This document shows, in pieces, positions 11,271 to 34,610 of a DNA stretch of 64,000 bases; within the stretch, counting starts at the first letter, position 1; each line of letters starts with the position of its first letter. The notes beneath the pieces were generated by a model that saw nothing but the letters and a program-made list of their open reading frames with translations, made no database searches and was not told the origin of the DNA. Origin of the DNA: Eledone cirrhosa (Eukaryota); assembly GCA_964016885.1 (NCBI GenBank), contig OZ024748.1, positions 6,138,001-6,202,000 of the forward strand, read 5' to 3'. The position numbers were made by a program, and so were the translations under genes.

Positions 11271-11473
11271 GACAACACACACACACATGTATATATATAT
11301 ATATATATGTGTATATATACATTCATATATATATATACACTTATATATATACATATATATACATATATATATACATGTATATACTGAAGCATGATGAATA
11401 ATAATATTTTCAATAATAATAACCATAATAATGACATTAATTAGAAGATAGGACAAGCAATGTTTATTCGTAC

Positions 11474-12066
11474 CATATTGACTTCTCATCCACGGATAAA
11501 TTGGTAAATTTGTACTTGATGTGTCTGTACTGTTGGACTTCCATCACTGCTGTTTATACCCGTTGTGTTAGCCGCTGGTGAAACCGGACTCGGTGTGTTT
11601 GGGATGAGATGATAAGTTGTGTTTGTCTGTCTGTGGGTCACAGAAACTGGTTTCCTGTGCTTGCTGTTGAGTACAGCTAGTGAACTGAGGAATGTCAGGA
11701 TGCTCTCCAACGGAGCCTGTATAATCTCGAGTACAAGGGTGATGGATCGGTGAAGAATTCGTCGCTTCGACGGCCACTTGTGTCTGTTGGCTGTGTCGTA
11801 AGTAAGCTGCGGTGTCCTGCGAGGTTTGGGTGGTTAGTGGTCTAACGTCGATTCGGTTGTAAGGAGGGAAACGAGGATATTGCGGCGGCGGCGGCGGCAG
11901 CGGCTGCCACGTTGTGACTGTTCAGAGATGATGTGTAATTATAGTCTGTGATTTGTCTGGCTGAGTGGTAAGCACTACCGTTTTGTGTCGGATGCCCACC
12001 ACCGAAAGACCCCATTCCTGTTGGCTGCAGGGCAGGGAGGTAAGAGTTTGGCAAATAAGTACTCAT
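11474..12066 (-). CDS. Antp: Central Hox gene (Antennapedia-like), first coding exon; reading frame disrupted as assembled; homeobox exon lies outside the window (intron >11.4 kb)
   Basis: ATG at 12066 gives MSTYLPNSY (Hox MSSYF-NS-type N-terminus). YPRFPPYNR at 11879-11853 matches the Antp-class YPRFPPYDR motif. [12 protein letters not shown] hexapeptide ends at a phase-1 donor G|GTACGA (11474/11473). These motifs sit in different frames (see findings). Confidence 0.88.
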
Positions 12067-12455
12067 TTCTAAATGTTGGCGAACAATGGTGCCAATTTTT
12101 TAATATTGATTTATATATTTATGAAAATATATAAATCACTAGAAATATAATAATATTACTAACACTATCAATAGTAATAATATCTTTCGATATTTTATTT
12201 CTTGCAATCGTTGCCAGAGTAAAAACTAAAATGAATTATTTCTCAGAATATAATAAATTCAAGAATTTCAAACATTTTAAAAGTTTTATTTATGTATTTT
12301 CTATATTTAGAAAGTATATCTTCGTCTATATTTACCTCTATAAATATATATATTTCTATATTATTTCATATTTCATTTTGTTTTGTTTGTTGTGGGGTGA
12401 TGTTTTGTTGTGATTTATACATAACTTATTTAATTACTTTATATATATATATATT

Positions 12456-12493
<38 letters not shown>

Positions 12494-12843
12494 TTAAATA
12501 GATTTTTCGTCAATATGTATTGTGGCGAAAATGCGAGAGGAAACAGAATAAAATTTTCTTTCTTGGTGTAAGTTTGCAAAATGGCAGAAAATAAGAAAAT
12601 ATAATCTTTTCAGAAAAGTATAACATCCAGCCTGTTTTTTTTTTTTTTCTTCTTGTTTGTAAAACTTTTCCTTGTGATTCTTACAAGCACTTTGACTGTC
12701 TGCTTGGCTGAATGCCTGCAAACTAATCGAAGATTCAAAAAAAAAAAAAAAGGACCAAACCAAAAGTTTGATTGTCACGTGGTAGTGCCAGGAAATTTCT
12801 CAGCACAGAATGCTTCTTACCGGAACGGTCTCATTTCGGCACA

Positions 12844-12876
12844 CTGCAAAACTGAAAGAAGAGGGAAAATAAAATT
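12844..12876 (-). promoter_or_regulatory. Candidate splice acceptor (polypyrimidine tract + CAG) opening the Antp coding exon, giving ~785 nt of 5' UTR
   Basis: Minus strand CTAATTTTATTTTCCCTCTTCTTTCAG|TTTTGCAG, with AG ending at 12852 and an alternative at 12844. GTCACGTG E-box at about 12775-12782. Confidence 0.45.
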
Positions 12877-13020
12877 AGAACTGTAAATATATATATATAT
12901 ATTTGATTAAGGAATGTTTATATAATAGACAATACTAATATGATTATGAGTGTATGTATGTATGTGCATACAGACGGGCGTTCACACACACAATCTCATG
13001 TACATATATATATATATATA

Positions 13021-13091
<71 letters not shown>

Positions 13092-13092
13092 G

Positions 13093-13142
<50 letters not shown>

Positions 13143-13214
13143 GGGGGGGGGGGGATAACTAGATCAGGAAGTATTTTACAAGTTTTAAACTAATAAGAGC
13201 ATTTTCAGCACGCG

Positions 13215-13284
<70 letters not shown>

Positions 13285-13341
13285 GGGAGTGTGAGGAGTG
13301 TGTGTATGTTTGTATATGTGTGGAGGTGTGACTATTCTAGT

Positions 13342-13387
<46 letters not shown>

Positions 13388-13994
13388 AGAAAATGTGGAG
13401 AAGGATCACCAATGACTGCACCATTGACTGTAGAGAAATAGTGTATAATTTTAGGTATCAATTTTAAGACACTAAAGAGATTAAGAGATGCCATGTTTTT
13501 CGGTTTATTTGCTTGTTTGTTTTTTTAATCAGTGAACTTTAAAGCAAACAAACATTCATTGGATATCTAGATAAGATATAGGTCTATGGATCATTGGATA
13601 ACTGCTTGTCTTTCTGGAACATTGGCTATCACAAGGGATTGCCATAATGGTACCATTTGAATATATTGTTTTCGTGTAATTTATGAACGACTGTGTCGGC
13701 TTGCTGGAGCCCATCCCTCTCAAAAAGTTCTGCATGATGGAGAGAATTTGAAATCAACAGATTAGTCTATTAATATACGTTTCTATAAACGGTATTTTCT
13801 AATATATTCTGATATTTTCGAAATATTTCTCTATTAAAATAATTTGTTGTTCTTAATGTTTACTCAATACGTGAGCTTTGTTTGAACAGAACTCTGAATA
13901 GATGAAATTATCAGCTAAAACTTATAAAATCACAAAACGCAGTCTTAAACCCGAGAAGTATATACGACATATTGGCACAGCATTATATTATCTT

Positions 13995-14173
13995 TGGCAG
14001 TATCGGGAGAGGGTCGGACGCCATGCTTTGGAACAAAGAGTTACGGCCCTTTATGGTCTGCGTTCAAATTCCGCCGAGGTTAACTTTGCCTTTCATCCTT
14101 ACGGGTTCGATAAAATAAAGTACCAGTAATGCACTGGATAATTGCTGGCCTTGTGCCAAAAGTAGAAACAATT
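13995..14173 (+). mobile_element. tRNA-derived SINE
   Basis: TGGCAGTATCGG A-box, GCGTTCAAATTCC B-box, conserved central and 3' segments as in the other copies. Confidence 0.85.
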
Positions 14174-14827
14174 ATACTATGGTACTATGCTACGTTGTAT
14201 ATAAATCAACTATAATATACTATACACCATCCTGTAGTATTATATTATCTCTCAAAACTCTTGATAGATTCAGCAGAAAACCTCTAAATATTGGACTAAT
14301 CAGTTTAGTTGACAAAAGTTAACGTTATTATCAATAACATCTCTCGGTATCAAAAATGTAATTTCTTTTAATATTTCTATGTTCTAAACAGAAACAATAA
14401 CTTCAACAACCTGAACATGGAACGTGAATAGAAATATAAACTGGTTCAATCCACCATTCAGCGTGATAACAGGAATATTCTATAGTACGAAACATTCCCA
14501 ACATAAATGCATCATACTTAACAACAATAACAAGGTTAACCTTAGCTATACCTGGCTGAATAACATGACTAAGCATATACCTGTGTCTTTGTCTGTGTCT
14601 GTGTGTGTGTGATGTTTGGTGATGTTTTCGAATGTGATTATGTATGTTATTTGTGCATGTGTATGTTTTGTGAGAGTGTATGTGTATTTATGTGTGTGTG
14701 TCTGTGTGTATGTGTATGTGTCTCTGTGCGAGCAATGGACAAAACGATTATCAACTAAGTTGACGTCCATTAGTAGTTTAATGACTAGTAATCAAAACTA
14801 TCACTTAGATAATGAACCTATTTTCTT

Positions 14828-14889
<62 letters not shown>

Positions 14890-14894
<5 letters not shown>

Positions 14895-14941
14895 AATATA
14901 GAAGAGATTCTACAGGACTAGAACTGTTTCATTCATTAGAA

Positions 14942-14946
<5 letters not shown>
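14890..14946 (-). mobile_element. Fragment of fold-back family A2 (3' half of a hammerhead)
   Basis: Reverse complement TGATTTCTAATGAATGAAACAGTTCTAGTCCTGTAGAATCTC matches 42620-42661. Confidence 0.6.
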
Positions 14947-14989
<43 letters not shown>

Positions 14990-15181
14990 CTCCTTTGTAT
15001 CCATCTTCCTCCACCTCTAAACTTCACCATCCTACCTCTCTGTCTCACTCTGAGACATGTTATAATATAAATATACACTACCGGATAGATATAACCAACA
15101 CAAAACAACAACAGGACAACATATCATATAAATCACACACTACACACAAACACAACAGCTACACAACACACTACACACTCA

Positions 15182-15213
<32 letters not shown>

Positions 15214-15529
15214 CATTCGACAAATGTACTATAGACTTTTTTCTAATAGTAACACCACTTAGCAAAGTTAACATGTAAACAAGAATATATTTTTCTTTGC
15301 TTGTGTATAAGAGTGTCAGTGTGTATCCGCCTGTCTGTCTCTGTATGTATTGGTTTCTATCTTCTTTTTCTATGTGTGTGGGGAGCGAGAAGGTGGTATA
15401 CTAGAAAAAACAAACACAGAAACGACGTTAAAAAACAAATAAAGTCAGAATTAACAACGATGTCCACCATTATTAATCATGTGAAGGAGAAGAAAACAAC
15501 GAAGACTAAACTATGAAACACACACACGC

Positions 15530-15606
<77 letters not shown>

Positions 15607-15644
15607 AATCTATATATATATGTGTGTGTGTATATACATATATG

Positions 15645-15772
<128 letters not shown>

Positions 15773-15799
15773 CGTGTGTGTGTATATATTTATATATAT

Positions 15800-15897
<98 letters not shown>

Positions 15898-16023
15898 GTG
15901 TGTGTGTGTAAGTGGTGGTCAAAACATTTCCCTCAAAAAGCAAAATGGAGACATCTCCCCAAGAATAATTCTACCACTACACGCGTAAATACAATGGATA
16001 TGCATATATAAATATATAAATAT

Positions 16024-16093
<70 letters not shown>

Positions 16094-16526
16094 GTGTGTG
16101 TGTGTGTATTTATGTGTGTGTGTATATGTATGCCTCAATATATATATATATGTATATGAATATGTGCGTGTGTATTTATGTATGTATTCAAACATACATT
16201 CATAAAAATCTATTTGCATTTTCAATGTTGTTTATCTGTTGATTTCTCTAATGTCTCCTACATGTAATCTCTTGTGTTCTCTTCTCAGTCGTGTCTTCTT
16301 TATTGTTGGCAATTTCTATATAACTTGCTTTTCCCACATGTATTGACGTTTCAAATTCGCGTGACTTCATTATCAAGTGTTCTCGCTATAGACCAACGAA
16401 TCTTATGCGTGATAATATATATATATATATTCACACATACGCACGCACACAAACACACACATACATATATACATATATACATATATATATATACATATAT
16501 CTATATATATAATATATATACATATA

Positions 16527-16669
<143 letters not shown>

Positions 16670-17234
16670 GAATATTCTTTCGTGTATATGTTGCTACTCG
16701 ATATTGTTAAATTGCCACAGTGTTGATTAGATTGTTATTATTACAGAAAAGTTTTGTTTTTTTCCAATTTTAGAAATATGTTGTTATAATGATTGTTGCT
16801 GTCGTTGTTGCTGTCGTTGTTTCTGTAGTTACTGCTGTTCTTGCTGTTATCGTTCTTGTTTTTTTACATCATTATTTTACCCAGTTCAAATTTCCTTAGC
16901 ATAAAAACATGTCCTTTATTTCCCTGCGATATTACGTACGGCTATATAATACAACGTGTCCTTCCCTTTTCAAGAACTTAGGTAGAGATTAAATGGAGAT
17001 TCCGCTTGTCATTTCTAGTATTTCTGCAGTTGATAGTGTCAATAATTATACTTCTCTAAGTCTCTTATTGCATAACTGGTGAAGAAAAATATTGTCAAAT
17101 CTTATTGTTTCCAACATCACCATATTCCTCTATAAGTTACATATGTAAAGCTACTGGAAGACTATCAGTGAGCATGAAGTGTTTTGTGTGAATGATAGCA
17201 AAATCTGCCAGTGAAGTAAAACAAATCGACAACA

Positions 17235-17490
17235 TTTCTGTGCTCTCCAACAGGCTTGCAGTCCCGCCTTTGGCAGTGGAGACTTCTGGTGTCCTTGGCC
17301 CCAGGGCTACTTACCCTCTCACCACCATAGGCGCTGAGCTTGCCAGCCGCAGGTGTGAGCCTCGCGAGTTGGAATGGCTCTTCCAGCGCATCTCCCTTAC
17401 CATCCTCCGGGGAAACGCCTTCTCCATTCTGTCCGCCGGGACTCTAGGTCGGCCAACACGTGAGGCCCCATTTGCTCACAATAAAGAGAG
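17235..17490 (+). mobile_element. CRE-clade-like non-LTR retrotransposon 3' fragment (RLE C-terminus)
   Basis: PLAVETSGVLGP..TIGAELASRRCEPRELEWLFQRISLTILRGNAFSIL resembles the P.AVET.G..G / FLFQRLS.A.QRGNA..I C-terminus of CRE-type elements. Confidence 0.7.
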
Positions 17491-18437
17491 ATGGAGAGGG
17501 CGAGAGAGATTGAGGCAATGACAGTGGGAGTTCGCCTCTTCCGTGTTCGGATACATTGCACCTGTCATTTAGATTATATGATATTTTACATTTCGGCTGG
17601 TAAGTTGATTCAAGTCCAGGAGTCACTGACTATATGATTCATCGAACCTTGCTTTGTCCCAAATATTACTGGATTGCTTCAACGTTTCTTGACGTGAAAA
17701 CTGGACATAAATCCTGGACATTATGCTGGTCCCTGAAGCTTGACCATAAGATTTTGACGTGATAATTGGATCTTTCACTTTAAAGTTAGACGTAAAGCCT
17801 AGCCAGTTAGGATAGACGTTATGATAAAAAAATCAATGAAGTCTATACCATTATGTGTTCACGGAGTCCAAGTGTAAATAATTTAGTTTCAGTTTAGCAT
17901 ATTTATGCAATATAAAATGTAATATATGAAATATAAAAGCGTAGATCAAGTGGTTTGTTACTAACATATTAACAGAGAAAATCAACACCGGCTTGGTTAA
18001 CATTATTAAAACGTAACGATAATATGAATAATGTTTACATGAATGATTTCTTATCGACTTGGAAATAATTGAATTCTTAATAATAATAATGTTTATCATA
18101 ATGAATTTAAAATTGAACAGTAAAATGGTTGGCATTTACTATTTCAAAATGAACACACAGAATCATATAAACAGGTGATAGTTTCTTCCTGAGGATACAT
18201 ACTTAACAGACTAAAATATTTTATATATAAAATTTAGGAAAAAGCCAATATTAAAACGTAATTTGTCGCTGAAATTTTGGTTGGCTTGGTAAAAGGACTT
18301 AGCCAAGCATGTGATTTTTTAATTTTTATTGTTTTTTTTTTTGCATATATTCATTAATGAATTCTCATTCATATGTCTGTTTGCTTTAAATTTATTACTG
18401 TTATTGTTGTTGTTGTTATTATCATTATTATTATCAT

Positions 18438-18492
18438 TAGTAGTAGTAGTAGTAGTAGTAGTAGTACTAGTAGTAGTAGTAGTAGTAGTAGA

Positions 18493-18566
<74 letters not shown>
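18438..18566. repeat. (TAG)n/(CAG)n trinucleotide microsatellite
   Basis: Direct reading. Confidence 0.95.
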
Positions 18567-18567
<1 letters not shown>

Positions 18568-18880
18568 TTATTATTGTTGATATTGCTGGTGTTATTTTCT
18601 ATTTTACAAAATAATTTCTTCACACTATATTACATTTTCCAATATGCAGTTTAGTCTATTTCTAGTTCAATGGAATTATTTAAATTAGAGAAAATTTGTT
18701 AATCAAAATCATATTAGGCAAACCGGTTGGTGAGCAGAAAATAAAATATAATATAAAATAAAATAAAATAAATTAATTATAAATATTATTTACAAACATC
18801 TGACATGTATTATTGGCAGAATCGGAAGAGCGTCGAACAAAATACTTTGCAGTATTTAGTTATGACCGGCGTTAGTAAAT

Positions 18881-18998
18881 AATTGTTTCTACTTTAGGCA
18901 CAAGGCCAGCAATTACCCAGTGTATTACTGGTACTTTATTTTATCGACCCCGTAAGGATGAAAGGCAAAGTTAACCTCGGCGGGATTTGAACTCAGAT
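18881..18998 (-). mobile_element. 5'-truncated tRNA-derived SINE
   Basis: Matches the SINE consensus from the B-box to the 3' tail. Confidence 0.8.
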
Positions 18999-20011
18999 CA
19001 TAAATAATAACCTTTGATATTATTTTGCCTTTCCTCCTTACTGGGTCAATAAATTAAAGCACCAGTTATGCCAAAAGTAGAAACAATTATTGAATCTAAA
19101 TTTATAAAACTTGTAAATATGTAGTTATAAATACATATTTACGTTAATAACTTAACAGGTGAAATTTGTGTTAAATGAAAATAATTTATAGTAGGCCCTT
19201 TCATTTCCCTCCATTTCCGTTTTTAAATATTAATAAAGTTATGACAATTTCCTAAAAAAAAAAAAATTCTGTTTGATATATAAATATATTATATATATGT
19301 GTAATTAATTTATAATATATTATTGTTTTTGTCCCAACATGTGTTCATAAGTTAGGTTCTCAAAGGGAGATAATATCTTTCGTCTTAACTTCCATTGTTG
19401 TTCTTATCTGTTTTATAGTCTAACAAGAGTAAGACAGCAAGGCAATAGAAACAGAGAATGAGTGTTAGAGGGGAGGAAATGGCAATGGTTAGAGAATGAG
19501 AGGATGAGAGAGAGAGAGAGTGGGAGAGAGAGAGGGAGAGAGAGAGAGAGGGGGGGAGAGGGGGAGAGAGAGAGAGAGAAAATAAAACGACGATGAGTTA
19601 TGAGTAATATTTATTTCATTGTTACTAACACCATATATAAGATAAGAGTGAGTGTGCGTGATTGTACGTAAGTATGCGGGTACGTTTGTGTGTGAACATG
19701 CGTGAGTGTGTGTGTGTGTGTATGCATGTGTGTGTCTGTGTGTATGTGTCTATGTGTGTGTGTGTGTGTGTGTGTGTGCGTCTGTGTGTTTGTGAGTAAA
19801 GACGGTTACCAATAAATCAAAAACCGTCTCAAAAACATCAGAAGCTCCACAGGCATTTGTGTTTATGTGAGACAGACAGACTGTCGAATAAATCTATTGC
19901 TATTTAATGATTCCACAAGAAGATTGATTCCACAAGAAGATGGAAGTTTGATGGACTCTGTACTGCCATAGTTTCGGTTTCGATATCATGTTTGGCAAAC
20001 GAACCGTCATG

Positions 20012-20047
<36 letters not shown>

Positions 20048-20086
20048 TATATATATATATATGTACATTTATATATATATATATAC

Positions 20087-20175
<89 letters not shown>

Positions 20176-20192
20176 TTTATATATATATGTAC

Positions 20193-20241
<49 letters not shown>

Positions 20242-20279
20242 CATATATACATACATACGTACACACACACACATATATA

Positions 20280-20313
<34 letters not shown>

Positions 20314-20565
20314 GATGCTTCGCTTTGATAGACACTGATGTAATGGAAGCTCTCTTGGAATACCAATTACTGAAGAATTATATAACAGCAATTATATTAC
20401 CTGCTTCTGTATGTATGTGTATATATATATTTATATATACACACTTCAGTAGGCAGTTATCTATCAACGCTTATATATACCCCACTCATATACCTAGAAA
20501 CTTATATGAATGTAGATATAGATAACGGGTATATTGACATTCTGTATGATTTAAATATATATGTA

Positions 20566-20611
<46 letters not shown>

Positions 20612-20637
20612 TATATATATAATATATATATATATAC

Positions 20638-20724
<87 letters not shown>

Positions 20725-20752
20725 ATCTATATTTAAATCATACAGAATGTCA

Positions 20753-20790
<38 letters not shown>

Positions 20791-20889
20791 ATATATGTGT
20801 GTGTGTATATATATATATGTGTATATATATTTATATATATGTATATATATATTCATACATGCATACATATATTTATGTATGTATATATT

Positions 20890-20924
<35 letters not shown>

Positions 20925-21232
20925 GTATATACCTATATACATATATAATTACATATAGAAATATAAATACACATTATGTGAGTAGCGTTTGTGTGTGTGC
21001 GTGTGTGTGTGTGTGTGTGTGTATCCCTGTGTGTGTATGTCTAGTATGTCTATATGTGTGTGTGTGTGATTGTGTATCTTAAATTTCACATCATTTATGC
21101 ATGAATAACTGTTGATGCACAGTTACAAGCAACTAATATAATAGCTGTTTGTTTGTGTTGGCCGTGACACGATTTCTATTCCATTTCCTTATAAAAACTA
21201 TATCCACTCAGATAGAAAGATCTGGAACGTCG

Positions 21233-21336
<104 letters not shown>

Positions 21337-21895
21337 AATATATATATATATATATATATAATGTTAGCTGTTCATTCAAAATATTGTTTCTATGACAGGT
21401 TAATAAGAATTGGTACCATTAATATTGCTGCCAGCCAACGTTAATCTGTCTTTATATTATTTTTTTTCTCTTTCTTCACTCCAAGAAATCAATGAATTCC
21501 ACTTTTCCATTAATGCAAATTATTCGCCACATTTCTTAATTACATTTTACTGATTTTCATATTATTGGACAGACCTTTAGAAATGTGTGCGTGTGTGTGT
21601 GTATGAGTGTGTTTTTGTGGATGGGTGTGTTTGTGGGTGGGTGTGTGAAGAGGAAAACATATTTATCTTTTGTTTGTTTATTTCTCTATTTATATATTTG
21701 TTTGTATATTTATCTTGTATAGTTGCCCTATATCTAATCAAGCACTATGGTACACATTTCTTCATGACAAGAAATATTTAATATTTGTTTTACTTTCCAG
21801 GACTTATATCTATTTAGTGTAATCAATATATTTACGGATAGTAATGATCAGTTAATAATAGTAATAATAATAAAACTAATAATAATAATAATGTT

Positions 21896-22498
21896 AATTC
21901 TACTATAGGCACAAGGCCAGCAATTAAATCGACACCAGTGCATTATTTATGCTTTATTTATCGATCCGATAAGGATGAGAGGCAAAGCTAACCGCAGCGG
22001 ATTTGAACTCAGAAGTTAAAGGACCATAACTCTATGCGGCAAATCAGGGTGTCGATTCTGCCCAATTCACCGCCATATAATAAGGATTTCTAGTATAGGC
22101 ACAATGCCAGTAATTTGGGGGGAGGGGAAAGTCGATGAAATCGACCTCAGTACGTTTCTGGTACTTTATTTTATCAACCCCCTAAGGATGAAAGGCAAAG
22201 TTAACTTCGGCGGGATTTGAACTCAGACCGTAAAGGATCGTAACTCTATGCTGCAAAGCAAGGCGTCCGACGCCCTACCGATACTGCCAACCCACCGCCC
22301 TATAATAATTGTTTCTACTTTGGGCACAAGGCCAGCAATTATAACAGTATATTACTGGTACTTTATTTGATCGATCCCGTAAGGATGAAAGGCAAAGTTA
22401 AACTCGGCGGGTTTTGAACTCAGACCGTGAAGGACCATAACTCTGTGCCACGTATCAGGGTGTCCGACGCTCTACTGATTTTGTCAATCCCCCGCCCC
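21896..22498 (-). mobile_element. Three head-to-tail copies of the tRNA-derived SINE (about 21896-22074, 22086-22300, 22307-22498)
   Basis: Each copy runs from GGCACAA(G/T)GCCAG to GGATTTGAACTCAGA / CCGCC. Copies are separated by short TATAATAA linkers. Confidence 0.85.
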
Positions 22499-22999
22499 TA
22501 TAATAATGTCAATAGTAGATGTGTCCACGTAGCCTGCGCCCTTATTCACCTCCAAGTAATATAATTTGACCAGCCAATATCTGTGTATGAATGGGAAAAA
22601 TCATATTTATGCAAGTGGAACGATGATTTTTTTTGCCACCATTTTAGATTTGGTATGAAACTTGTGAAATTGTCTGATATCCCAATGTTGGAATTCTTTA
22701 CAAACTAGAAAAAGGATTCATTGAAATCTCTATCACTGATTTGATTGGCTTACATTTTTCTTTCTTTTTTTTGTATTTATTCTTTTTTATGTATTCATAT
22801 TCTTTATTCTTATTTATTCTTATTTATTGATGTGTTTCTCATTTTCATTATTACTGCTGTGTTGTTAGTGGTGTTGTTGGTGTTGATGTTGATAGTGATG
22901 GTGATGTGGATGGTGAAATTGGTGGTGATGACGTTCTTTATAAATCTTAGCAAAGTTTATATTCATTTCAAACAAATAAATGGCGTTTATTTCATTATC

Positions 23000-23151
<152 letters not shown>

Positions 23152-23868
23152 CAAGGAGACAGAGAGAGAGAAACATACAGACACTAGATTTGTACTAAAC
23201 TAATTTTAGCGACCTCTTCACCTGAGGAATAAGGTGCTAAGAAGTATAAATTAATAAATATAACTAGACAACATAGGATGAAAACATCGTGGACTGAAAT
23301 ATTATCGGATTGTAAGGGAATAAAGGAACACGAGTAAATACAAATGAATAAAAGAATAATGGAATGAAGGAATAATTGTTTAAATGAAAGGCTTAGTAAA
23401 AAGATGGCTGACACAGAAGTTGAAGTGAGGTGAAAGATACTATTGATGACATGTTAAGCCGTTACTTTCACACTAATTGTGATCAAATCACAAACGGTGT
23501 AGAGAAATCAATGATGCAAATATGATAGATTAAGACATCGTTGAATAAATAACATATATTGGACGATAATATATATTTATGATTGTAGGTTCGTAAACTG
23601 TAGTATCTAATTCAAAGTGTTAGTCCGTCCTACCTAAAAATACCAACTAAAATCTTCCTCGATTAACACAATAGTTAAACACTGTCTCGGAGTGTTTTAA
23701 ATCAAGAGGATCGAGATGAAAATACAGTACAGAATGCAGATATGAATGTTAAAGTAAATATATACATCCGAAACGTTAATACTTTTTTTCCTACTGTATC
23801 GAGTGTAAAACTAATCATATATTTCTTAATTGTACTGTGTCGTTTCTTTTGTTATTTCTGTTTGCATT

Positions 23869-23915
<47 letters not shown>

Positions 23916-24057
23916 ATATATATATATATATGTACAAAACGAAACTTACGGTGATGACAATATATATATATCAGATGAAAGTTCGATATTCATTTAAATC
24001 GAAAAACATGTGACGAAAAAAGGAATATATATATATATATACATAAATGTATATATA

Positions 24058-24098
<41 letters not shown>

Positions 24099-24718
24099 GG
24101 AAATCAATATAATACGACCACATCATGACATGTAATACAATACTAAGTAAAGCTCTAGATAACACATGAAGACCATACAAACTCATTAATGAGCAGTGTA
24201 TTAATGGAATCCCGTGTACAATGGCAATTAATCATGAGATCATCTCCATCCTCATCACCATCACCACCACCACCACCACCACCACCACCACCACCACCAC
24301 CACCACCACCACTAGTATACAAGTATACTTATTCTTATATGCGTGCGTATGTGTTCGAGTGTATTCGTTGTGATTGTCTGTAATTGTCTTTGTATCTGTG
24401 TATATTTATTTGTCTGTGTGTGTGTGTGTATGAACTTGACACACAATCAATGCTGTCTCAATCAATAATTGGAGTAACCAAGAGGATCTTCCAAAGAGCC
24501 ACCCAGACAGTATAGCGATTCCACCCCCACCACTAACCATATATCTTCTATATATCAGTAAATAATAGTAAAAAAATTATGATACCCACGGGCTGGGACA
24601 TCAGATAGTATTTCACATAAAGATTCTAATTTTTTTCTTCTATTTTGTACTTACCAGTGTGTTTACGCAATTATCTATTTGAATTATATATATATATTAT
24701 ATATATATATTTGTATGC

Positions 24719-24778
<60 letters not shown>

Positions 24779-24779
24779 C

Positions 24780-24838
<59 letters not shown>

Positions 24839-25069
24839 CATTACTATCACAGAGGTCCGAGGAGCCATTGATTACAGAGTCGGGCTAGATCGAAGCAGAT
24901 CGAACCTTGAGCTTATCGATAGCGAAACGCGCGTCACCAACCAATAAACGTAATGAAGGAATAGCCATTCGTCCCTGTTTTATTATACTACACTCTGTCT
25001 AGCTCTACACCTAAACATCGAGTGTTCACCCGGGCGAACCTACAGTAACTCTTCGTTACACTCCCTGTG

Positions 25070-25398
25070 TATAGAGAGAGGGAGAAAATTAACCGATACC
25101 AGGACTTAAAGTGGGAGGTAAAAAGGATTTGGAACTGCCATGAAGTCAAAGTGATCCCTATCGTCATAAGCGCACTAGGTATTATCTCAAAAAGTTTCCA
25201 GGGATGGTTAAAGAAAATTGGCCCCGCTCCGCTTTTTGGAACACTTCAAAAGGCATGCTTGCTGGGAACGCAAGAACCCTCCGATACGTCCTGAATATCT
25301 GAGGCTGCAGGTAGTGGCTTGATATTCATTTCAACAAACTTTCCAGTTAACTAACATCAATCACTGAGACTCAAAGAACAATAATAATAATAATAATA
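25070..25398 (+). mobile_element. RLE-type (R4/Dong-like) non-LTR retrotransposon 3' end with (TAA)n tail
   Basis: EKINRYQDLKWEVKRIWN..VKVIPIVISALG..LQKACLLGT, with a frameshift into TLRYVLNI*. The 3' UTR ends in (TAA)n at about 25380-25398. Confidence 0.8.
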
Positions 25399-27671
25399 GT
25401 CGATCGACAAGATCTCAGACCTTATTTGCTTAACGAGTGGGGTGAACCTCGTGAAATCGGACCGATGAAACAATGTTTCCATTGGTTTTTCCAATTACTA
25501 ATACTAAGCATGGGGTTTATAGCTAATTTTCTTATCTATATTTACAAATAAATTTGTAAATTATATTCGTCATGTGTAAGTTTATAAATTCTTTCTATTG
25601 TATGATAGGCAAGAAGCAAATAAGTTTGTTAGAGCGACATAGTCAAAACTCAGTCACAATCATTACATATATGACACTATTTATTTTGTTCTATATTGAT
25701 CCCAGACCAATGAGATATAAAGTCAAAACCGGCGAGATTTCACCAGAGATCTGCGAGACAAAAAATATTATAGAAAGTAATAAATAAATGTTCTTATTAT
25801 GATAACAATATCTGTTTCAACACACAACTTTATATCGAAAACCTGCAAAAGAAATACATCACCACTTATAATAAATAAAGCATTTAGAAAACTTTCTAAA
25901 CACCATATCTCACACATCCACAAATTTAAACTTGTAAACTCGTCTTTAAAATGTTTCTCATTTTCTATGGCTCATATCTTCTTTAACAAATAAAATATTG
26001 TTGTCTTGTTTTTGATGAAACTACGCCAACTCTGTATGGTTTGATTGGTCAAATTTCTCTCCACAGAAGCCAGATATCGTGTTCATTGTTGGAACGGTAT
26101 CTTGTCTCAGATGGAATCATTCCAGCTTCCTCGTTGTAATTTGGCAAATGATTTATATACAAATAACATTTATATTTTATTTATTCGTATTTGGTTTCAT
26201 TTTCTTTTTTTTTATTATTAGTTTTCGAGCTTGTAAAAATAAATATTTTTGTATCTGTAATCTTATCTATTAGCGAATGCCATGGAAAACCGAGATAAAC
26301 TCCCAGTGAACCGAGTGAAAAATATATAAATAAATAAATGTTTTCTATTTTCACTTTGAATTGCTATTTGAAGCCCTTTCGAATCTAATATAATAACTAG
26401 ATGCTATTAAAAAAAGGGATGCATGTTACAACTTCTCTCATCGTCTCCTGATCCACAGAAAGCAATAAGGCAAATTATACAAAGATAAATAAAATCCAAG
26501 ATTCAAACACACCACCATTAGCACCACAATCTCCGTAACACAACCACTACCAACCTCACATCACCCTCACTAGTACTATAACTACCAGCAAAGGTACCAC
26601 CATGATCATACTATCACCAACACTACCGCAACCACCACTATCATGGATATACTTTTATCACCACTATCACTACAACCAACACCATGATACCACTATACCC
26701 CCAGCATCACAACCACTACTATTAATACCATCACCAAACAACCACCAACACCAGTATCAATACCATTACTTTAACTACCACAAAATTACCACTAAACTAC
26801 CACGATCTTCAACAACAACACCTCACCAAACAACCACCACACCACCACACTACCACACCACCACACCATCACACCATCACACCATCACACCATCACACCT
26901 TTATCACCAATAGAACCATCGTCTCGTTGCGTTATCATCCTCTGAAAGCCAGTCACAATTGGTAAGAACTTATTCCATGCCATATAGCGTTTCTTGGATA
27001 ACAACAACAGCAATAACAATAACAACATCACCACCACTAACAACAATAACAACATCACCACCATTAACAACAATAACAACAACAGCAACTGAAAAAACAA
27101 CAACATTGCAGCCAACAACATATCCACAACCAACATCACTACTATCCCCACCAACAACAACAACAATAACAACATCAACAACAACAACAATAAAATCAAC
27201 ACCAAAAAGAAAAAAAAACTTTAGCCTCGGCAACAAACAAACAAACAAAAACAACCAAAAAAAACAACAGCAACGACAACAATAACAATAAAAAAAACAA
27301 TAAACAGCAACAAAAAAACAAAACAATGTTACCACCGACACCATCACCACGACCACCACCACCACCGCCACCACCACCGCCGTCAACAACAACAACAACA
27401 TGACTGGAACCATCGATTTGCTTCCTAATGGATTTATTCTAGTAAAGGAGGCCGTGACGTTACCAAGGCAACCAATTGAGCAATACTACTGCTGGTTTTT
27501 CGGGACCATTTCACCGTTTTACTCCAAGTAACGGGTGAAAGATTTCGTATCTTACCAACAAATGTGGTATTTTATAGATACACACAAACACGCACACATC
27601 ACAGACACTTACACACACACACACACACACACACACACTGACACACACACACACACATTCCCGAACACACA

Positions 27672-27764
<93 letters not shown>

Positions 27765-27880
27765 CATATATATATATATATATATGTATGTATATATGTA
27801 TATATATATATGTATGTATATATCTATATATATATATATATATATAAATATATAAATATATATATATATGCATAAAGGTT

Positions 27881-27915
<35 letters not shown>

Positions 27916-28019
27916 ATATATGTGTGTGTGTGTATGTGTGTGAGTGTGTATGTATATATATATGTATGTATATATGTATATATATATATATAAATATATA
28001 TATATATATGCATAAAGAC

Positions 28020-28056
<37 letters not shown>

Positions 28057-28131
28057 CGTGTGTGTGAGTGTGTATGTATATATATGTATGTATATATATA
28101 TATATATAAATATATATATATATGCATAAAG

Positions 28132-28163
<32 letters not shown>

Positions 28164-28220
28164 GTGTGTGTGTGTCTGTGTATGTATGTGTGTGAGTGTG
28201 TATGTATATATATATATATG

Positions 28221-28256
<36 letters not shown>

Positions 28257-28761
28257 TATATATATGTGTGTGTGTGTGTGTATGTGTATGTGTGTATATA
28301 TATATATATGTGTATGTATATATGTATATACATGCAATGATGTTCCCCCCAAATACTATTCAACTGTTAAGAAAGTTTGTAAGTTTGTGTATCTGGCTCA
28401 TTAAAGTCTGCTGCAATATCATCATTGCTGTTGCTGATGTTGTTGTTATTGTTGTTACTGCTGCTGCAGTTTCTAAGGTGATCTAATGGTGAAAGGTGAT
28501 GCTAATAATAGCGAGAGAAGTGGTGGCATTTGCTATGATAAGTGGCAATGGCGTTTGGTATGTCTCTGATTGTATTGTTGGGGAGTGGTGTTGATAGAGG
28601 GTGGCGGGTCAGTGAAAGAATATTTTAGCAAAAACAGAATTCTTGTACAGTTATACAAAGACACAGACAAGTACACAGACACAGACACACACACAAATAT
28701 ATATATATATATATATATATACATACATATACTCACACATGCACACACAGATATACACATG

Positions 28762-28800
<39 letters not shown>

Positions 28801-28918
28801 TCACACATGGACACACAGTATACACATGTATATACATATATATATCCTCACACATGCACACACAGTATATACATGTGTATATATATAAATATATATATAT
28901 ACATATTTATATATACGT

Positions 28919-28978
<60 letters not shown>

Positions 28979-29130
28979 GAGATGGCGAAATGAAGAGACA
29001 ACTGTTTTTTTTCTTTTTTCGAAGAAATATATTTTGCTTCTACCCCTGCACATTGTGTTTTATCTCTCTCTTTCTTCTTTAATTTATCATTCTATATTCT
29101 GAAGAAGGACTAGCGTCGATATATAGCGTG

Positions 29131-29249
<119 letters not shown>

Positions 29250-30432
29250 GCGTGTCTGTTTGTTTGTGTGTGTGTATTCATGCATTTATGTCCATTTACT
29301 GTGATTTGTTTCCATGGTAATTTAAAAATATGATATTAATGGTAAAAATAGCAGTAAGAAAACTTGTTTCAAAGGTGAAATTCCTGATACCAAAGTTTGG
29401 AACTGTCTGTTAACTGAATTGTCTTTACGTTGGCTCATGGTTCATTTGTCTTCAGTATTTTGGAAAGTGGTTTCTCTACAAATATATTGTCTGTTTCTAT
29501 TGAGAGGTGGAATTAGACTTTGGTTATAATATTATTGTTGGTGCTGTTTATGTTTGTGTTGGAGCGATTTGTGAGGTTGGGTGCATTATTGTCGGCCATG
29601 TTAGACATGTTCTTGGCTCAACTCGTTGGCTGGCAGAGCACGATTGAAAAGAGAAAAGATATGTTATAGATGTTGGTAATTGTGATATTTGTGGAATTAC
29701 TGTCGCTAATATTATTGTTGTTGATATTAGTGCTGTTGGTATTCATGCTGTTGGTACTAGTGGTGTTGGTACTAGTGCTGTTGGTATTAGTGCTATCAGA
29801 TTCCCTCCAAATTCTTATATACATGTCTTTATATACATGTCTTTATATACATGTCTTTATATACATGTTGTTGATACTAGTGCTGTTGGTATTCATGTTG
29901 TTGATACTAGTGCTGTTGGTACTAGTGCTGTTCCCTCCAAATTCTTATATACATGTCTTTATACATATGCATACATAATCCTTTACATTCTACCTCAGCA
30001 GCTGTGATATTTTAGTGGGTTTTCTTCAGCAATATTTGCAATGACTTAACCTGTCAACCTGGCTACCTTTAGAGCTAGATTAATCTTTCGTGTTGATGAA
30101 GACTGCAAAATCCACTGTAACTCTACAGATTGACGGCAAGTTAAAATGTAAATAGCGCAGCTATCCCTCACATTGAAGGGTCAACTCGATAACTCCTGAA
30201 GCTGTAGTTTCGTATTCTGGGAAATTACAATACATATATTACGATGGATCTCTCATTGTTTTGGAAATGTTAGTGTTCCCGTTGCACCAACAACAGAACT
30301 ACCTACTCTATGAATGATATGATATTTGTAGTTGGCTAAATATTCCACGCGGCTATTTATGGCATTAGTATACCTTAAAAGCAAACGAACATGATAATTT
30401 GTATGTCGAGCCTGGCCTGATTTGTGACTATC

Positions 30433-30480
<48 letters not shown>

Positions 30481-30578
30481 TATAGACATAGAATATTCGA
30501 AAATATTCTGTATGTTTATAATAAACATTTTGAAGACCTAATCGCTATAGAATAGAATACGTCACGTATTACAATTAG

Positions 30579-30667
30579 ATTCTCGATAAAAGCAAGGGAA
30601 GTAATCTACGCGTTTCATTCTTGTTAGAAATCATCAGGACTACATATCCAGTGCTTTTATCGAGAAT
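30579..30667 (-). ncRNA. Type I hammerhead ribozyme (array copy, minus strand)
   Basis: Exact reverse complement of 31435-31523. Confidence 0.85.
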
Positions 30668-30888
30668 GACACAGCTAGAGACTTATAGAATACTTAGCTG
30701 TGTACAGGAACTGGTTTGAAAGAGCGGTTGCCGGTCCGGCAGAAATTAGAAATTGGAATAAATGCTCTGAAATAGCGATATATATGTGAATATAGACATA
30801 GAATATTCGAAAATATTCTGTATGTTTATAATAAACATTTTGAAGACCTAATCGCTATAGAATAGAATACGTCACGTATTACAATTAG

Positions 30889-30977
30889 ATTCTCGATAAA
30901 AGCAAGGGAAGTAATCTACGCGTTTCATTCTTGTTAGAAATCATCAGGACTACATATCCAGTGCTTTTATCGAGAAT
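30889..30977 (-). ncRNA. Type I hammerhead ribozyme (array copy, minus strand)
   Basis: Exact reverse complement of 31435-31523. Confidence 0.85.
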
Positions 30978-31434
30978 GACACAGCTAGAGACTTATAGAA
31001 TACTTAGCTGTGTACAGGAACTGGTTTGAAAGAGCGGTTGCCGGTCCGGCAGAAATTAGAAATTGGAATAAATGCTCTGAAATAGCGATATATATGTGAA
31101 TATAGACATAGAATATTCGAAAATATTCTGTATGTTTATAATAAACATTTTGAAGACCTAATCGCTATAGAATAGAATACGTCACGTATTACAATTAGAT
31201 TCTCGATAAAAGCAAGGGAAGTAATCTACGAGTATTCTATTCTATAGCGATTAGGTCTTCAAAATGTTTATTATAAACATACAGAATATTTTCGAATATT
31301 CTATGTCTATATTCACATATATATCGCTATTTCAGAGCATTTATTCCAATTTCTAATTTCTGCCGGACCGGCAACCGCTCTTTCAAACCAGTTCCTGTAC
31401 ACAGCTAAGTATTCTATAAGTCTCTAGCTGTGTC

Positions 31435-31523
31435 ATTCTCGATAAAAGCACTGGATATGTAGTCCTGATGATTTCTAACAAGAATGAAACGCGTAGATTA
31501 CTTCCCTTGCTTTTATCGAGAAT
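31435..31523 (+). ncRNA. Type I hammerhead ribozyme; predicted cleavage after GUA at 31495
   Basis: Helix I GTAGTC(31459-64)/GATTAC(31496-501). Core CTGATGA (31465-71). Helix II TTCT-aaca-AGAA. GAAA (31486-89). Minimal palindromic helix III AC-GC-GT. Distal 16-bp extension ATTCTCGATAAAAGCA/TGCTTTTATCGAGAAT. Confidence 0.88.
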
Positions 31524-31744
31524 CTAATTGTAATACGTGACGTATTCTATTCTATAGCGATTAGGTCTTCAAAATGTTTATTATAAACATACAGAATATT
31601 TTCGAATATTCTATGTCTATATTCACATATATATCGCTATTTCAGAGCATTTATTCCAATTTCTAATTTCTGCCGGACCGGCAACCGCTCTTTCAAACCA
31701 GTTCCTGTACACAGCTAAGTATTCTATAAGTCTCTAGCTGTGTC

Positions 31745-31833
31745 ATTCTCGATAAAAGCACTGGATATGTAGTCCTGATGATTTCTAACAAGAATGAAAC
31801 GCGTAGATTACTTCCCTTGCTTTTATCGAGAAT
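31745..31833 (+). ncRNA. Type I hammerhead ribozyme (array copy)
   Basis: Identical to 31435-31523, offset by 310. Confidence 0.85.
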
Positions 31834-32054
31834 CTAATTGTAATACGTGACGTATTCTATTCTATAGCGATTAGGTCTTCAAAATGTTTATTATAAACAT
31901 ACAGAATATTTTCGAATATTCTATGTCTATATTCACATATATATCGCTATTTCAGAGCATTTATTCCAATTTCTAATTTCTGCCGGACCGGCAACCGCTC
32001 TTTCAAACCAGTTCCTGTACACAGCTAAGTATTCTATAAGTCTCTAGCTGTGTC

Positions 32055-32143
32055 ATTCTCGATAAAAGCACTGGATATGTAGTCCTGATGATTTCTAACA
32101 AGAATGAAACGCGTAGATTACTTCCCTTGCTTTTATCGAGAAT
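32055..32143 (+). ncRNA. Type I hammerhead ribozyme (array copy)
   Basis: Identical, offset by 620. Confidence 0.85.
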
Positions 32144-32364
32144 CTAATTGTAATACGTGACGTATTCTATTCTATAGCGATTAGGTCTTCAAAATGTTTA
32201 TTATAAACATACAGAATATTTTCGAATATTCTATGTCTATATTCACATATATATCGCTATTTCAGAGCATTTATTCCAATTTCTAATTTCTGCCGGACCG
32301 GCAACCGCTCTTTCAAACCAGTTCCTGTACACAGCTAAGTATTCTATAAGTCTCTAGCTGTGTC

Positions 32365-32453
32365 ATTCTCGATAAAAGCACTGGATATGTAGTCCTGATG
32401 ATTTCTAACAAGAATGAAACGCGTAGATTACTTCCCTTGCTTTTATCGAGAAT
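32365..32453 (+). ncRNA. Type I hammerhead ribozyme (array copy)
   Basis: Identical, offset by 930. Confidence 0.85.
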
Positions 32454-32674
32454 CTAATTGTAATACGTGACGTATTCTATTCTATAGCGATTAGGTCTTC
32501 AAAATGTTTATTATAAACATACAGAATATTTTCGAATATTCTATGTCTATATTCACATATATATCGCTATTTCAGAGCATTTATTCCAATTTCTAATTTC
32601 TGCCGGACCGGCAACCGCTCTTTCAAACCAGTTCCTGTACACAGCTAAGTATTCTATAAGTCTCTAGCTGTGTC

Positions 32675-32763
32675 ATTCTCGATAAAAGCACTGGATATGT
32701 AGTCCTGATGATTTCTAACAAGAATGAAACGCGTAGATTACTTCCCTTGCTTTTATCGAGAAT
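32675..32763 (+). ncRNA. Type I hammerhead ribozyme (array copy)
   Basis: Identical, offset by 1240. Confidence 0.85.
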
Positions 32764-32984
32764 CTAATTGTAATACGTGACGTATTCTATTCTATAGCGA
32801 TTAGGTCTTCAAAATGTTTATTATAAACATACAGAATATTTTCGAATATTCTATGTCTATATTCACATATATATCGCTATTTCAGAGCATTTATTCCAAT
32901 TTCTAATTTCTGCCGGACCGGCAACCGCTCTTTCAAACCAGTTCCTGTACACAGCTAAGTATTCTATAAGTCTCTAGCCGTGTC

Positions 32985-33073
32985 ATTCTCGATAAAAGCA
33001 CTGGATATGTAGTCCTGATGATTTCTAACAAGAATGAAACGCGTAGATTACTTCCCTTGCTTTTATCGAGAAT
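32985..33073 (+). ncRNA. Type I hammerhead ribozyme (array copy)
   Basis: Identical, offset by 1550. Confidence 0.85.
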
Positions 33074-33204
33074 CTAATTGTAATACGTGACGTATTCTAT
33101 TCTATAGCGATCAGGTCTTCAAAATGTTTATTATAAACATACAGAATATTTTCGAATATTCTATGTCTATATTCACATATATATCGCTATTTCAGAGCAT
33201 TTAT

Positions 33205-33236
<32 letters not shown>

Positions 33237-33239
<3 letters not shown>

Positions 33240-33440
33240 AGAAAGTATTACCCCGACGGCAGAGCTCAAGCCGTTTCGACGGCTATTTCTGGACTAAAGT
33301 AGTCCAGAAATAGCCGTCGAAACGGCTTGAACTCTGCCGTCGGAGTCATACTTTCTCGTATTACCCACTCTACTACCCAAAGTATTGAGTACTCTGGTGC
33401 GTTATGGTCCATCTGGTTCTTTACCACAACTCCTTCGTTA
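33237..33440. mobile_element. Fold-back element family C (palindrome 33237-33360 plus tail)
   Basis: Arms ..GACGGCTATTTCTGGACTA-aag-TAGTCCAGAAATAGCCGTC. Contains GAAACGGC..GCCGTC (hammerhead helix III + GUC). Embedded in (TA)n. Confidence 0.8.
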
Positions 33441-33607
33441 TATATATATATATGTGTGTGTATGTCTGTGTGTGTGAATATTAGTGTGTTAGTTCCTGTA
33501 TACACACATATACAAACACACATACATACATACTCACACACACAAACACATAAACACACACACACATAAATACACACACAAACACACACACACACATAAA
33601 TACACAC

Positions 33608-33638
<31 letters not shown>

Positions 33639-33746
33639 TATATATATATTTATATATAGATATATACATGTATGAATATATACATACACAAACACACATA
33701 CCCGTAAAAATACCAAATGTCAGACAGATAGGTTTTGTGGATAATA

Positions 33747-33785
<39 letters not shown>

Positions 33786-33886
33786 AAACGAAAAATCAGT
33801 GATGCATCTGGACTCAGTTTATGGTGTAAGAAAATAGTGGGCTCAACTGGCATACCACCCATGGAAGCATTATAGCTACCATTAAA

Positions 33887-33955
<69 letters not shown>

Positions 33956-33962
33956 CTTTCTT

Positions 33963-34003
<41 letters not shown>

Positions 34004-34024
34004 TTCTTTATATCCATATATATT

Positions 34025-34092
<68 letters not shown>

Positions 34093-34129
34093 TATATGTA
34101 TATAAAGAAAGAGACCGAGAGAGAGATAA

Positions 34130-34162
<33 letters not shown>

Positions 34163-34293
34163 GAGAGAGAGAGAGCGAGAGAGAGAGGGGGGGGGTGTAA
34201 AAGAAGTAAAAGCTCTGTAATTTACCGTAAGATTCTGTTGGTTCAGTGATTTCCTAAGTTGGGTTATATTGGACGGTAAAGGATATGGGGTGG

Positions 34294-34505: not shown

Positions 34506-34546
<41 letters not shown>

Positions 34547-34610
34547 TATGCGTAAGTGTGTGTATATATATCTATATGATTATATATGTATGGCTTTCCT
34601 ATTCTTTCTT

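What the first reader, a model, noticed from the sequence alone, without database searches (positions are those of the whole stretch)
11474..12066. Antp-like Hox exon is broken across three reading frames
Seen: the ATG frame (MSTYLPNSY..poly-Ala) stops at TAG 11844-11842. The conserved YPRFPPYNR motif is in the +1 frame, which is closed upstream by TGA at 11924-11922, so a shift must fall between 11921 and 11880 (the GCC run). That frame also holds YPWMRSQY but has TAA (11570-11568) and TGA (11546-11544). A third frame spans these stops with Hox-like text ([24 protein letters not shown]). Repair needs three frameshifts, or one frameshift plus bypass of two stops. Inferred options are consensus indel errors, true pseudogenisation of a Hox gene, or recoding. 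A-to-I editing, extensive in coleoids, could turn UAA/UGA into Trp but cannot fix the first shift. The indel-free 310-bp array nearby argues weakly against a generally high indel error rate.
Basis: partly seen in the sequence, partly recalled or inferred. Interest (0 to 1): 0.75.

Follow-up and report, generated by a model that had tools for sequence, protein, structure and literature searches.

The report
Assembly errors in octopus Antp gene
This octopus-type Hox gene (Antp) looks broken only in this genome assembly: three one-letter slips split its reading frame, but other sequence data from the same species and from relatives lack all three, so they are most likely sequencing errors in an ordinary, intact gene.

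Summary
The three-frame split is in the window exactly as described. The exon is the first coding exon of the single-copy Antp gene of an octopod Hox cluster. Its homeobox exon lies 34 kb away, is intact, and matches Drosophila Antp at 60 of 60 homeodomain residues.

The breaks are three one-base changes in run length: an extra A (11881-11880), an extra C (11603-11601) and a missing C (11536-11535). Two same-species contigs lack them and show 0 substitutions over 889-952 bases; one is spliced into the homeobox exon. A related species' unspliced contig lacks them too. Undoing them gives one frame in phase with the homeobox exon (274 aa). Against the relative, 20 of 22 substitutions are silent (pN/pS 0.03).

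The assembly is otherwise accurate: 121 of 121 protocadherin frames are open for at least 727 aa, and the Scr and Lox2 first exons are intact. This is a local consensus error (about 0.95). A private null allele in the sequenced animal is not excluded without its reads (about 0.04). Species-wide pseudogenisation and recoding are refuted. No earlier scan note on this gene was found.

The parts
11474..12066 (-). Coding part of the first coding exon of Antp (593 bases in the window, 592 once the three indels are undone; phase-1 end)
   Evidence: 91-100% identity of its four pieces to P0001 in alignment A1
11880..11881 (-). Indel 1: AA where relatives imply a single A between the last Ala codon and Tyr (one extra base)
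   Evidence: Frameshift-aware alignment; 10 of 10 relatives in A1 read Ala-run-YPRF. Contigs X2, X3, X4 each lose one base in the masked stretch 11873-11912 (length arithmetic in table 8 and a 1/27 depth dip); they do not fix the exact place
11601..11603 (-). Indel 2: CCC where other data have CC (one extra base)
   Evidence: '11601 left out' in X2, X3 and X4 and again in X2, X3
11535..11536 (-). Indel 3: CC where other data have CCC (one missing base)
   Evidence: 'G put in behind 11534' in X2 and X4; X3's 10-letter loose end before 11535 also carries the extra G (table 7)
11487..11498 (-). YPWM hexapeptide (PBC-cofactor motif; function from established knowledge)
   Evidence: conserved in 9 of the 10 relatives of A1 (P0012 ends earlier)
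11472..11473 (-). GT donor of the 34,251-base intron to the homeobox exon, which lies outside the window (G000:C8:6115222 down to the stop at 6114990; locus L010)
   Evidence: X2's loose end at 11472 is identical to the start of the exon in L010, which follows TTTTCAG
12067..12851 (-). AT-rich 5' leader part of the same exon (26% GC, 7 upstream ATGs); continuity across masked repeats is inferred
   Evidence: X2 pieces 11472-12423, 12506-12622, 12766-12854; acceptor AG at 12853-12852
12852..48075 (-). 35,224-base intron in the 5' untranslated region (GT..AG)
   Evidence: X2's loose end behind 12854 matches 48079-48108 exactly and only there in the window; donor at 48075-48074
48076..48317 (-). 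Upstream non-coding exon; the 5' limit is inferred from the 239 loose letters of the contig, of which only 30 were shown

Best explanation
This is the first coding exon of an ordinary octopod Antp Hox gene, and its three frameshifts are most likely one-base errors of the assembled consensus, not features of the organism. SHOWN: the window differs from same-species contigs by three one-base indels and nothing else over 889-952 aligned bases (40 repeat letters not scored). Undoing them gives one frame that splices in phase (G|GT, Gly) to an intact homeobox exon, a 274-residue protein of the same build as the Argonauta protein (275 aa). SHOWN: two of the three are length changes of CC/CCC runs; the third is placed at an AA by protein alignment. 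INFERRED: the cause is a local patch where the consensus rested on few or noisy long reads, or was not polished; homopolymer length errors are the typical residual error of long reads. INFERRED from established Hox biology: the protein binds DNA through its homeodomain and uses YPWM to contact PBC cofactors in axial patterning.
For:: X2 (organism A, depth 41.6) covers 11472-12200 with 0 other letters and 3 gaps (728 letters on 729); X3 (organism A, depth 3.6) has 0 other letters and 2 gaps (664 on 666); X4 (organism B, running unspliced into the intron) has 3 gaps (752 on 753). extends X2 and X3 to 12423 with no further difference and shows the third indel in X3's loose end. The indels are the same three that the protein alignment needs. 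Exon length 592 is phase 1, as the acceptor of the homeobox exon requires. 20 of 22 exonic substitutions of X4 are silent in the repaired frames, against 7, 11 and 6 of 22 in the three literal frames; pN/pS 0.03, binomial p 3e-11. Homeobox exon: 76 of 76 residues identical to P0002 and P0008, 72 of 76 to Argonauta. Named intact orthologues: O. sinensis XP_029656778.1 (this exon only), Argonauta hians GAB1610366.1 (whole). Three indels with no substitution has probability 0.001-0.016 if indels are 10-25% of real small variants (assumed shares). PMC12212083 (passages read): homopolymers and read-coverage dropouts are sources of residual long-read assembly errors.
Against: The reads behind the assembly were not seen, so error is inferred, not shown. 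The genome-wide coding indel rate is very low (121 of 121 protocadherin matches in frames of at least 727 aa; Scr and Lox2 first exons intact), so a special local cause is needed and none was found: there is no N gap from 34 kb downstream to 72 kb upstream of the exon, and no further indel in the 357 bases 12067-12423. PMC12212083 reports that about 78% of frameshifted genes in accurate human assemblies were true variants (passage). X2 and X3 are two samples of one study, which may be the source of the assembly. X3 is under depth 5. Contigs drop rare variants. A run-length change is a weak discriminator: a random insertion equals a neighbouring base 44% of the time here, and slippage mutations also favour runs.
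Confidence: 0.95

Rival explanations
1. The sequenced animal really carries a null Antp haplotype with three private one-base indels (net +1), probably heterozygous, and the assembly shows that haplotype.
For: The assembly is otherwise very accurate; most frameshifts in accurate human assemblies are real (PMC12212083, passage); no reads of this individual were seen; contigs cannot show absence of a rare allele (tool note).
Against: It needs three independent indels within 348 bases on one haplotype with no substitution in 952 bases (rough probability 0.001-0.016), in a single-copy gene under pN/pS 0.03. No second haplotype copy is in G000 (1 match).
Confidence: 0.04
2. Antp is a unitary pseudogene in this species or lineage.
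For: Only the window's literal sequence. Antp loss has a precedent in molluscs: it is missing from the Crassostrea gigas assembly (PMC5831810, passage).
Against: Two same-species samples carry the intact frame, one as a spliced contig. The homeobox exon is unchanged (76 of 76 identical to P0002). Splice sites and phase are kept. No excess of amino-acid change.
Confidence: 0.005
3. The DNA is broken but the product is repaired by recoding: RNA indel editing or transcriptional slippage at three runs, ribosomal frameshifting, or A-to-I read-through of stops.
For: The spliced contig X2 is intact where the window is not, which taken alone would fit RNA-level repair.
Against: X4, which runs unspliced into the intron, is intact too, as is X3 from a 1.4-Gb, genome-sized contig set (its DNA origin is inferred from size). 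The O. sinensis and Argonauta gene models encode the intact frame. X2 shows no other letter at either stop, and the stops are simply off-frame: relatives encode the third frame.
Confidence: 0.005

Closest known systems
Argonauta hians GAB1610366.1 (275 aa; named 'uncharacterized protein LOC115230790') and Octopus sinensis XP_029656778.1 (202 aa, same exon run into the intron)
   Same: Same N-terminus, 8-9 Ala run, [26 protein letters not shown] and, for Argonauta, the same join into the homeodomain; homeobox exon 72 of 76 identical.
   Different: Ordinary amino-acid divergence only; the three indels are in the window alone.
Drosophila Antennapedia homeodomain (PDB 1hom, 9yzt, 9ant)
   Same: 60 of 60 homeodomain residues identical to 9yzt_D; best hit among solved structures (1.8e-37), ahead of abd-A, Ubx, Scr and ftz.
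   Different: The N-terminal region was not compared with the fly protein.
Residual homopolymer indel errors of long-read assemblies that create false frameshifts (PMC12212083 passages read; PMC12007338 and PMC8812927 seen as search listing with abstract start)
   Same: One-base run-length changes without substitutions, clustered locally, absent from other data sets.
   Different: The sequencing technology and read depth of this assembly are not known here, so the match is by pattern only.

Membership tests
Antp (central-class Hox gene) | Homeodomain of the Antp type | tested here: met
   60 of 60 identical to Drosophila Antp, ranking above abd-A, Ubx, Scr and ftz
Antp (central-class Hox gene) | YPWM hexapeptide shortly before the homeodomain, separated by an intron | tested here: met
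   YPWM at 11498-11487; spliced contig joins 11474 to the homeobox exon. The feature itself is recalled.
Antp (central-class Hox gene) | Position in the Hox cluster between Lox5 and Lox4/Lox2, same strand | tested here: met
   Homeoboxes on C8 minus strand at 4.11, 4.99, 5.67, 6.115 (this gene), 6.47, 6.64, 7.07 Mb. The labels Hox1, Scr, Lox5, Lox4, Lox2, Post2 rest on recalled signature peptides, not on a tree.
Antp (central-class Hox gene) | Lacks the Lox5 (KLTG) and Lox2/Lox4 (Ubd-A-type) peptides after the homeodomain | tested here: met
   The tail is ENKAEVPV..., while neighbours carry KLTGP, QIRELN and QAIKELNEQ; diagnostic motifs recalled
Antp (central-class Hox gene) | Embryonic expression and patterning function | not testable with these tools
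   A spliced contig exists (X2), but its run has no library record
Unitary pseudogene | Disabling lesions shared across the species | tested here: not met
   Absent from two same-species samples
Unitary pseudogene | Relaxed selection | tested here: not met
   pN/pS 0.03 against organism B; homeobox exon unchanged. This would not detect a very recent loss.
Recoded gene (RNA indel editing, programmed frameshift or read-through) | The interruption is in genomic DNA and conserved in relatives | tested here: not met
   Unspliced contig X4 and 10 relative proteins are uninterrupted
Assembly consensus indel error | Absent from independent sequence of the same species | tested here: met
   (two samples, one study)
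Assembly consensus indel error | Absent from, or a minority in, the reads of the assembled individual | not testable with these tools
   No raw reads covered the exon (X5: 3 reads elsewhere, X6: 0)

The most novel reading that the evidence does not exclude
The sequenced octopus carries a real loss-of-function haplotype of its only Antp gene, hit by three clustered slippage indels and no substitution. That would be a natural Hox null allele in a cephalopod and a case of clustered indel mutation.
Probability: 0.04. Interest if true: 0.45.

Novelty: not a real feature. Interest (0 to 1): 0.05.

Why it matters
As an error it matters only practically. Automatic annotation of this assembly would truncate or drop Antp and could lead to a false claim of Hox loss in an octopod, so the three bases should be corrected. 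It also shows that an assembly with essentially no coding indels elsewhere can still hide a local cluster of them. By-product: the gene model (non-coding first exon, two introns of 35 and 34 kb, long AT-rich leader with upstream ATGs). If the allele were real it would offer a natural Hox mutant in a cephalopod.

Tried and rejected
No RNA holder was listed; this blank is not used as evidence. X2 is treated as transcript-derived only because it is joined at two GT..AG junctions.

RAD-seq raw reads: 2 of 3 offered runs were laid (X5, X6; X7 was not). None covered the exon (X5 had 3 reads at about 12775-12884, X6 had 0). X1 laid no contig on the exon; a hole proves nothing.

One of X4's 23 listed substitutions (12102) lies outside the exon and was left out of the count. 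X4's table 8 shows 30 other letters, so 7 were not listed and not scored.

Hox first-exon control: 5 genes sought. Two were found and are intact (Scr, Lox2). Lox4 was not found in 169 kb (which holds a 200-N gap), Lox5 not in 140 kb, Post2 not in 40 kb. The protocadherin control scored 150 of 255 candidates; a break inside the searched domain could drop a match, so 121 of 121 is slightly biased.

No assembly gap was found near the exon. Rfam scan of the window at gathering thresholds: 0 matches. The alignment of the 62-63 kb pieces was uninformative; one search showed them to be inverted.

Paper searches for an octopus or cephalopod Antp pseudogene listed none by title or abstract start. The library lacks most subscription papers. 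PMC9635652 and PMC5831810 (passages) list only Hox2, Hox4 (and Hox3 in O. bimaculoides) as missing in octopods. PMC4186843 (passages) was not useful. No supplements were read. No fold or complex prediction was run, as it would not bear on the question.

Full report
OBSERVATION. The ATG at 12066 runs to TAG 11844-11842. The frame with YPRFPPYNR starts behind TGA 11924-11922, is interrupted by TAA 11570-11568 and TGA 11546-11544, and resumes to YPWMRSQY. A third frame holds [22 protein letters not shown]. The stretch has one match in the window's own genome (G000:C8:6149470-6150070), so there is no intact second copy.

WHAT THE GENE IS. A homeodomain search of G000 finds seven minus-strand homeoboxes between 4.11 and 7.07 Mb of C8. 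By recalled signature peptides they read Hox1, Scr, Lox5, this gene, Lox4, Lox2, Post2. The homeobox at 6.115 Mb follows TTTTCAG and begins GT CCT CAC; with the single G left at 11474 this gives Gly-Pro-His-Arg-Lys-Arg-Gly-Arg. The intron is 34,251 bases. The homeodomain is identical to Drosophila Antp at 60 of 60 residues and ranks Antp above abd-A, Ubx, Scr and ftz. Relatives of the exon include Octopus sinensis XP_029656778.1 and Argonauta hians GAB1610366.1. All 10 relatives aligned are uninterrupted over the part they cover; P0012 ends before the second break. Passages of PMC9635652 and PMC5831810 name Hox2, Hox4 and, in O. bimaculoides, Hox3 as the Hox genes missing in octopods, not Antp.

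WHERE THE BREAKS ARE. A frameshift-aware alignment to P0001 and to P0002 needs exactly three shifts in both: an extra base at 11880 (after nine Ala codons, GCA-A-TAT), an extra base at 11603 (CCC) and a missing base near 11533 (CC). With them, 184 of 196 matched residues are identical to P0001. The net change is +1, so the literal window sequence would be a null allele, ending at TAG 11842.

INDEPENDENT SEQUENCE. Four runs hold the stretch, three labelled as one species (organism A; samples S1 and S2, one study) and one as another (organism B). Laid on 11400-12200: X2 covers 11472-12200 with 0 other letters and 3 gaps, 728 letters on 729. X3 covers 11535-12200 with 0 other letters and 2 gaps, 664 on 666. 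X4 covers 11430-12182 with 30 other letters and 3 gaps, 752 on 753. X1 laid nothing on the exon. Listed gaps are a G put in behind 11534 (X2, X4) and one base left out at 11601 (X2, X3, X4). The third gap lies in the masked repeat 11873-11912: the length arithmetic makes it one base left out, and each run shows a 1/27 depth dip there. Its exact place comes from the protein alignment, not from the contigs. extends X2 and X3 to 12423 with no further difference and shows the extra G in X3's loose end, so all three contigs carry all three corrections. X2 leaves the window at 11472 with a loose end identical to the homeobox exon, so it is spliced. X4 runs on into the intron, so it is unspliced. Caveats: X2 and X3 come from one study that may be the source of the assembly; X3 is under depth 5; contigs drop rare alleles; raw RAD reads did not cover the exon.

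SELECTION. Of X4's 22 listed exonic substitutions, 20 are silent when each piece is read in the frame that relatives use (5 of 6, 10 of 11, 4 of 4, 1 of 1), against 7, 11 and 6 of 22 in the three literal frames. pN/pS is 0.03 (binomial p 3e-11). The corrected exon is 592 bases, phase 1, as the homeobox acceptor requires; the total is 274 residues. The homeobox exon is identical to P0002 and P0008 at 76 of 76 residues (all). There is no sign of decay, though a very recent loss would not show here.

IS THE ASSEMBLY GENERALLY NOISY? No. 121 of 121 protocadherin matches lie in open frames of at least 727 residues (150 of 255 candidates scored). That bounds the coding indel rate near 1e-5 per base, at which three independent errors in 593 bases have probability about 5e-8. 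The first coding exons of Scr (repeat-rich, about 1.3 kb) and Lox2 are intact; those of Lox4, Lox5 and Post2 were not found in the DNA fetched. The 310-bp units are indel-free. So the three indels share a local cause. I found no gap near the exon and no further indel in the 357 bases upstream of the ATG, so that cause is not identified.

WEIGHING. A local patch of poor consensus explains three one-base run-length changes without substitutions in one step. Passages of PMC12212083 name homopolymers and coverage dropouts as sources of residual long-read errors. The same paper notes that about 78% of frameshifted genes in accurate human assemblies are true variants, which keeps a real allele on the table. 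A real allele, however, needs three indels and no substitution on one haplotype (rough probability 0.001-0.016 under assumed indel shares of 10-25%) in a single-copy gene under strong constraint. Run-length context alone is weak evidence (44% by chance). I put consensus error at 0.95, a private null haplotype at 0.04, and species-wide pseudogenisation and recoding at 0.005 each, since both are contradicted.

BY-PRODUCT. X2 also joins 12851 to an upstream non-coding exon ending at 48076, across a 35,224-base GT..AG intron. The 785-base leader part is 26% GC with 7 upstream ATGs. Translational control by upstream ORFs and IRES elements is described for vertebrate Hox leaders (PMC8172242, search listing only); a long AUG-rich leader in Drosophila Antp is recalled. 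Nothing here tests such a role.

VERDICT. The gene is an ordinary, conserved octopod Antp. Interest 0.05.

Noticed in passing
window 48317-48076 joined to 12851-12067 (minus): Antp has a non-coding upstream exon and a 35.2-kb intron in its 5' UTR. The leader is about 1 kb, AT-rich, with 7 upstream ATGs in 12851-12067 and 3 in 48320-48076; it might control translation, which is untested.
   Followed up: partly
window 30468-31243 and 31232-33210: Two arrays of the same 310-bp unit in opposite orientation, abutting, inside the 5' UTR intron; 8 whole units are all 310 bp with one substitution. Recent expansion or assembly homogenisation was not tested.
   Followed up: partly
window about 62365-63621: Imperfect inverted repeat of about 1.3 kb, 86% identical, with microsatellite-rich arms; related text recurs at about 63092-63424.
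   Followed up: no
G000:C8:4.11-7.07 Mb: Seven Hox homeoboxes in the ancestral order (labels recalled) on one strand within about 3 Mb; no Hox2-, Hox3-, Hox4- or Post1-like match was recognised among the listed loci in this span. Two engrailed-type homeoboxes lie at 12.10 and 12.27 Mb.
   Followed up: partly
G000:C8:6535761-6535960 (L054:6661-6860): A 200-N gap between the Lox4 homeobox exon and the next gene; no Lox4 first exon was found in the 169 kb searched, so it may fall in the gap or lack the motifs searched.
   Followed up: partly
G000:C8:5119000-5117629 (minus; L090): The Scr first coding exon is about 455 codons, swollen by Ala, Gly, Gln, Asn, His and Ser runs, yet in one open frame.
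   Followed up: no
window 38199-38989: 9-bp minisatellite (about 88 copies) giving long PTP/TNT-type open frames on the plus strand inside the 5' UTR intron; probably non-coding.
   Followed up: no
window about 2866-3627 (plus): Two ORF pieces whose text (CRLC...HIVASC, H-D-G, RPDIVV, EIS-P-D) recalls the zinc-finger and endonuclease end of a non-LTR retrotransposon; label recalled, not tested.
   Followed up: no
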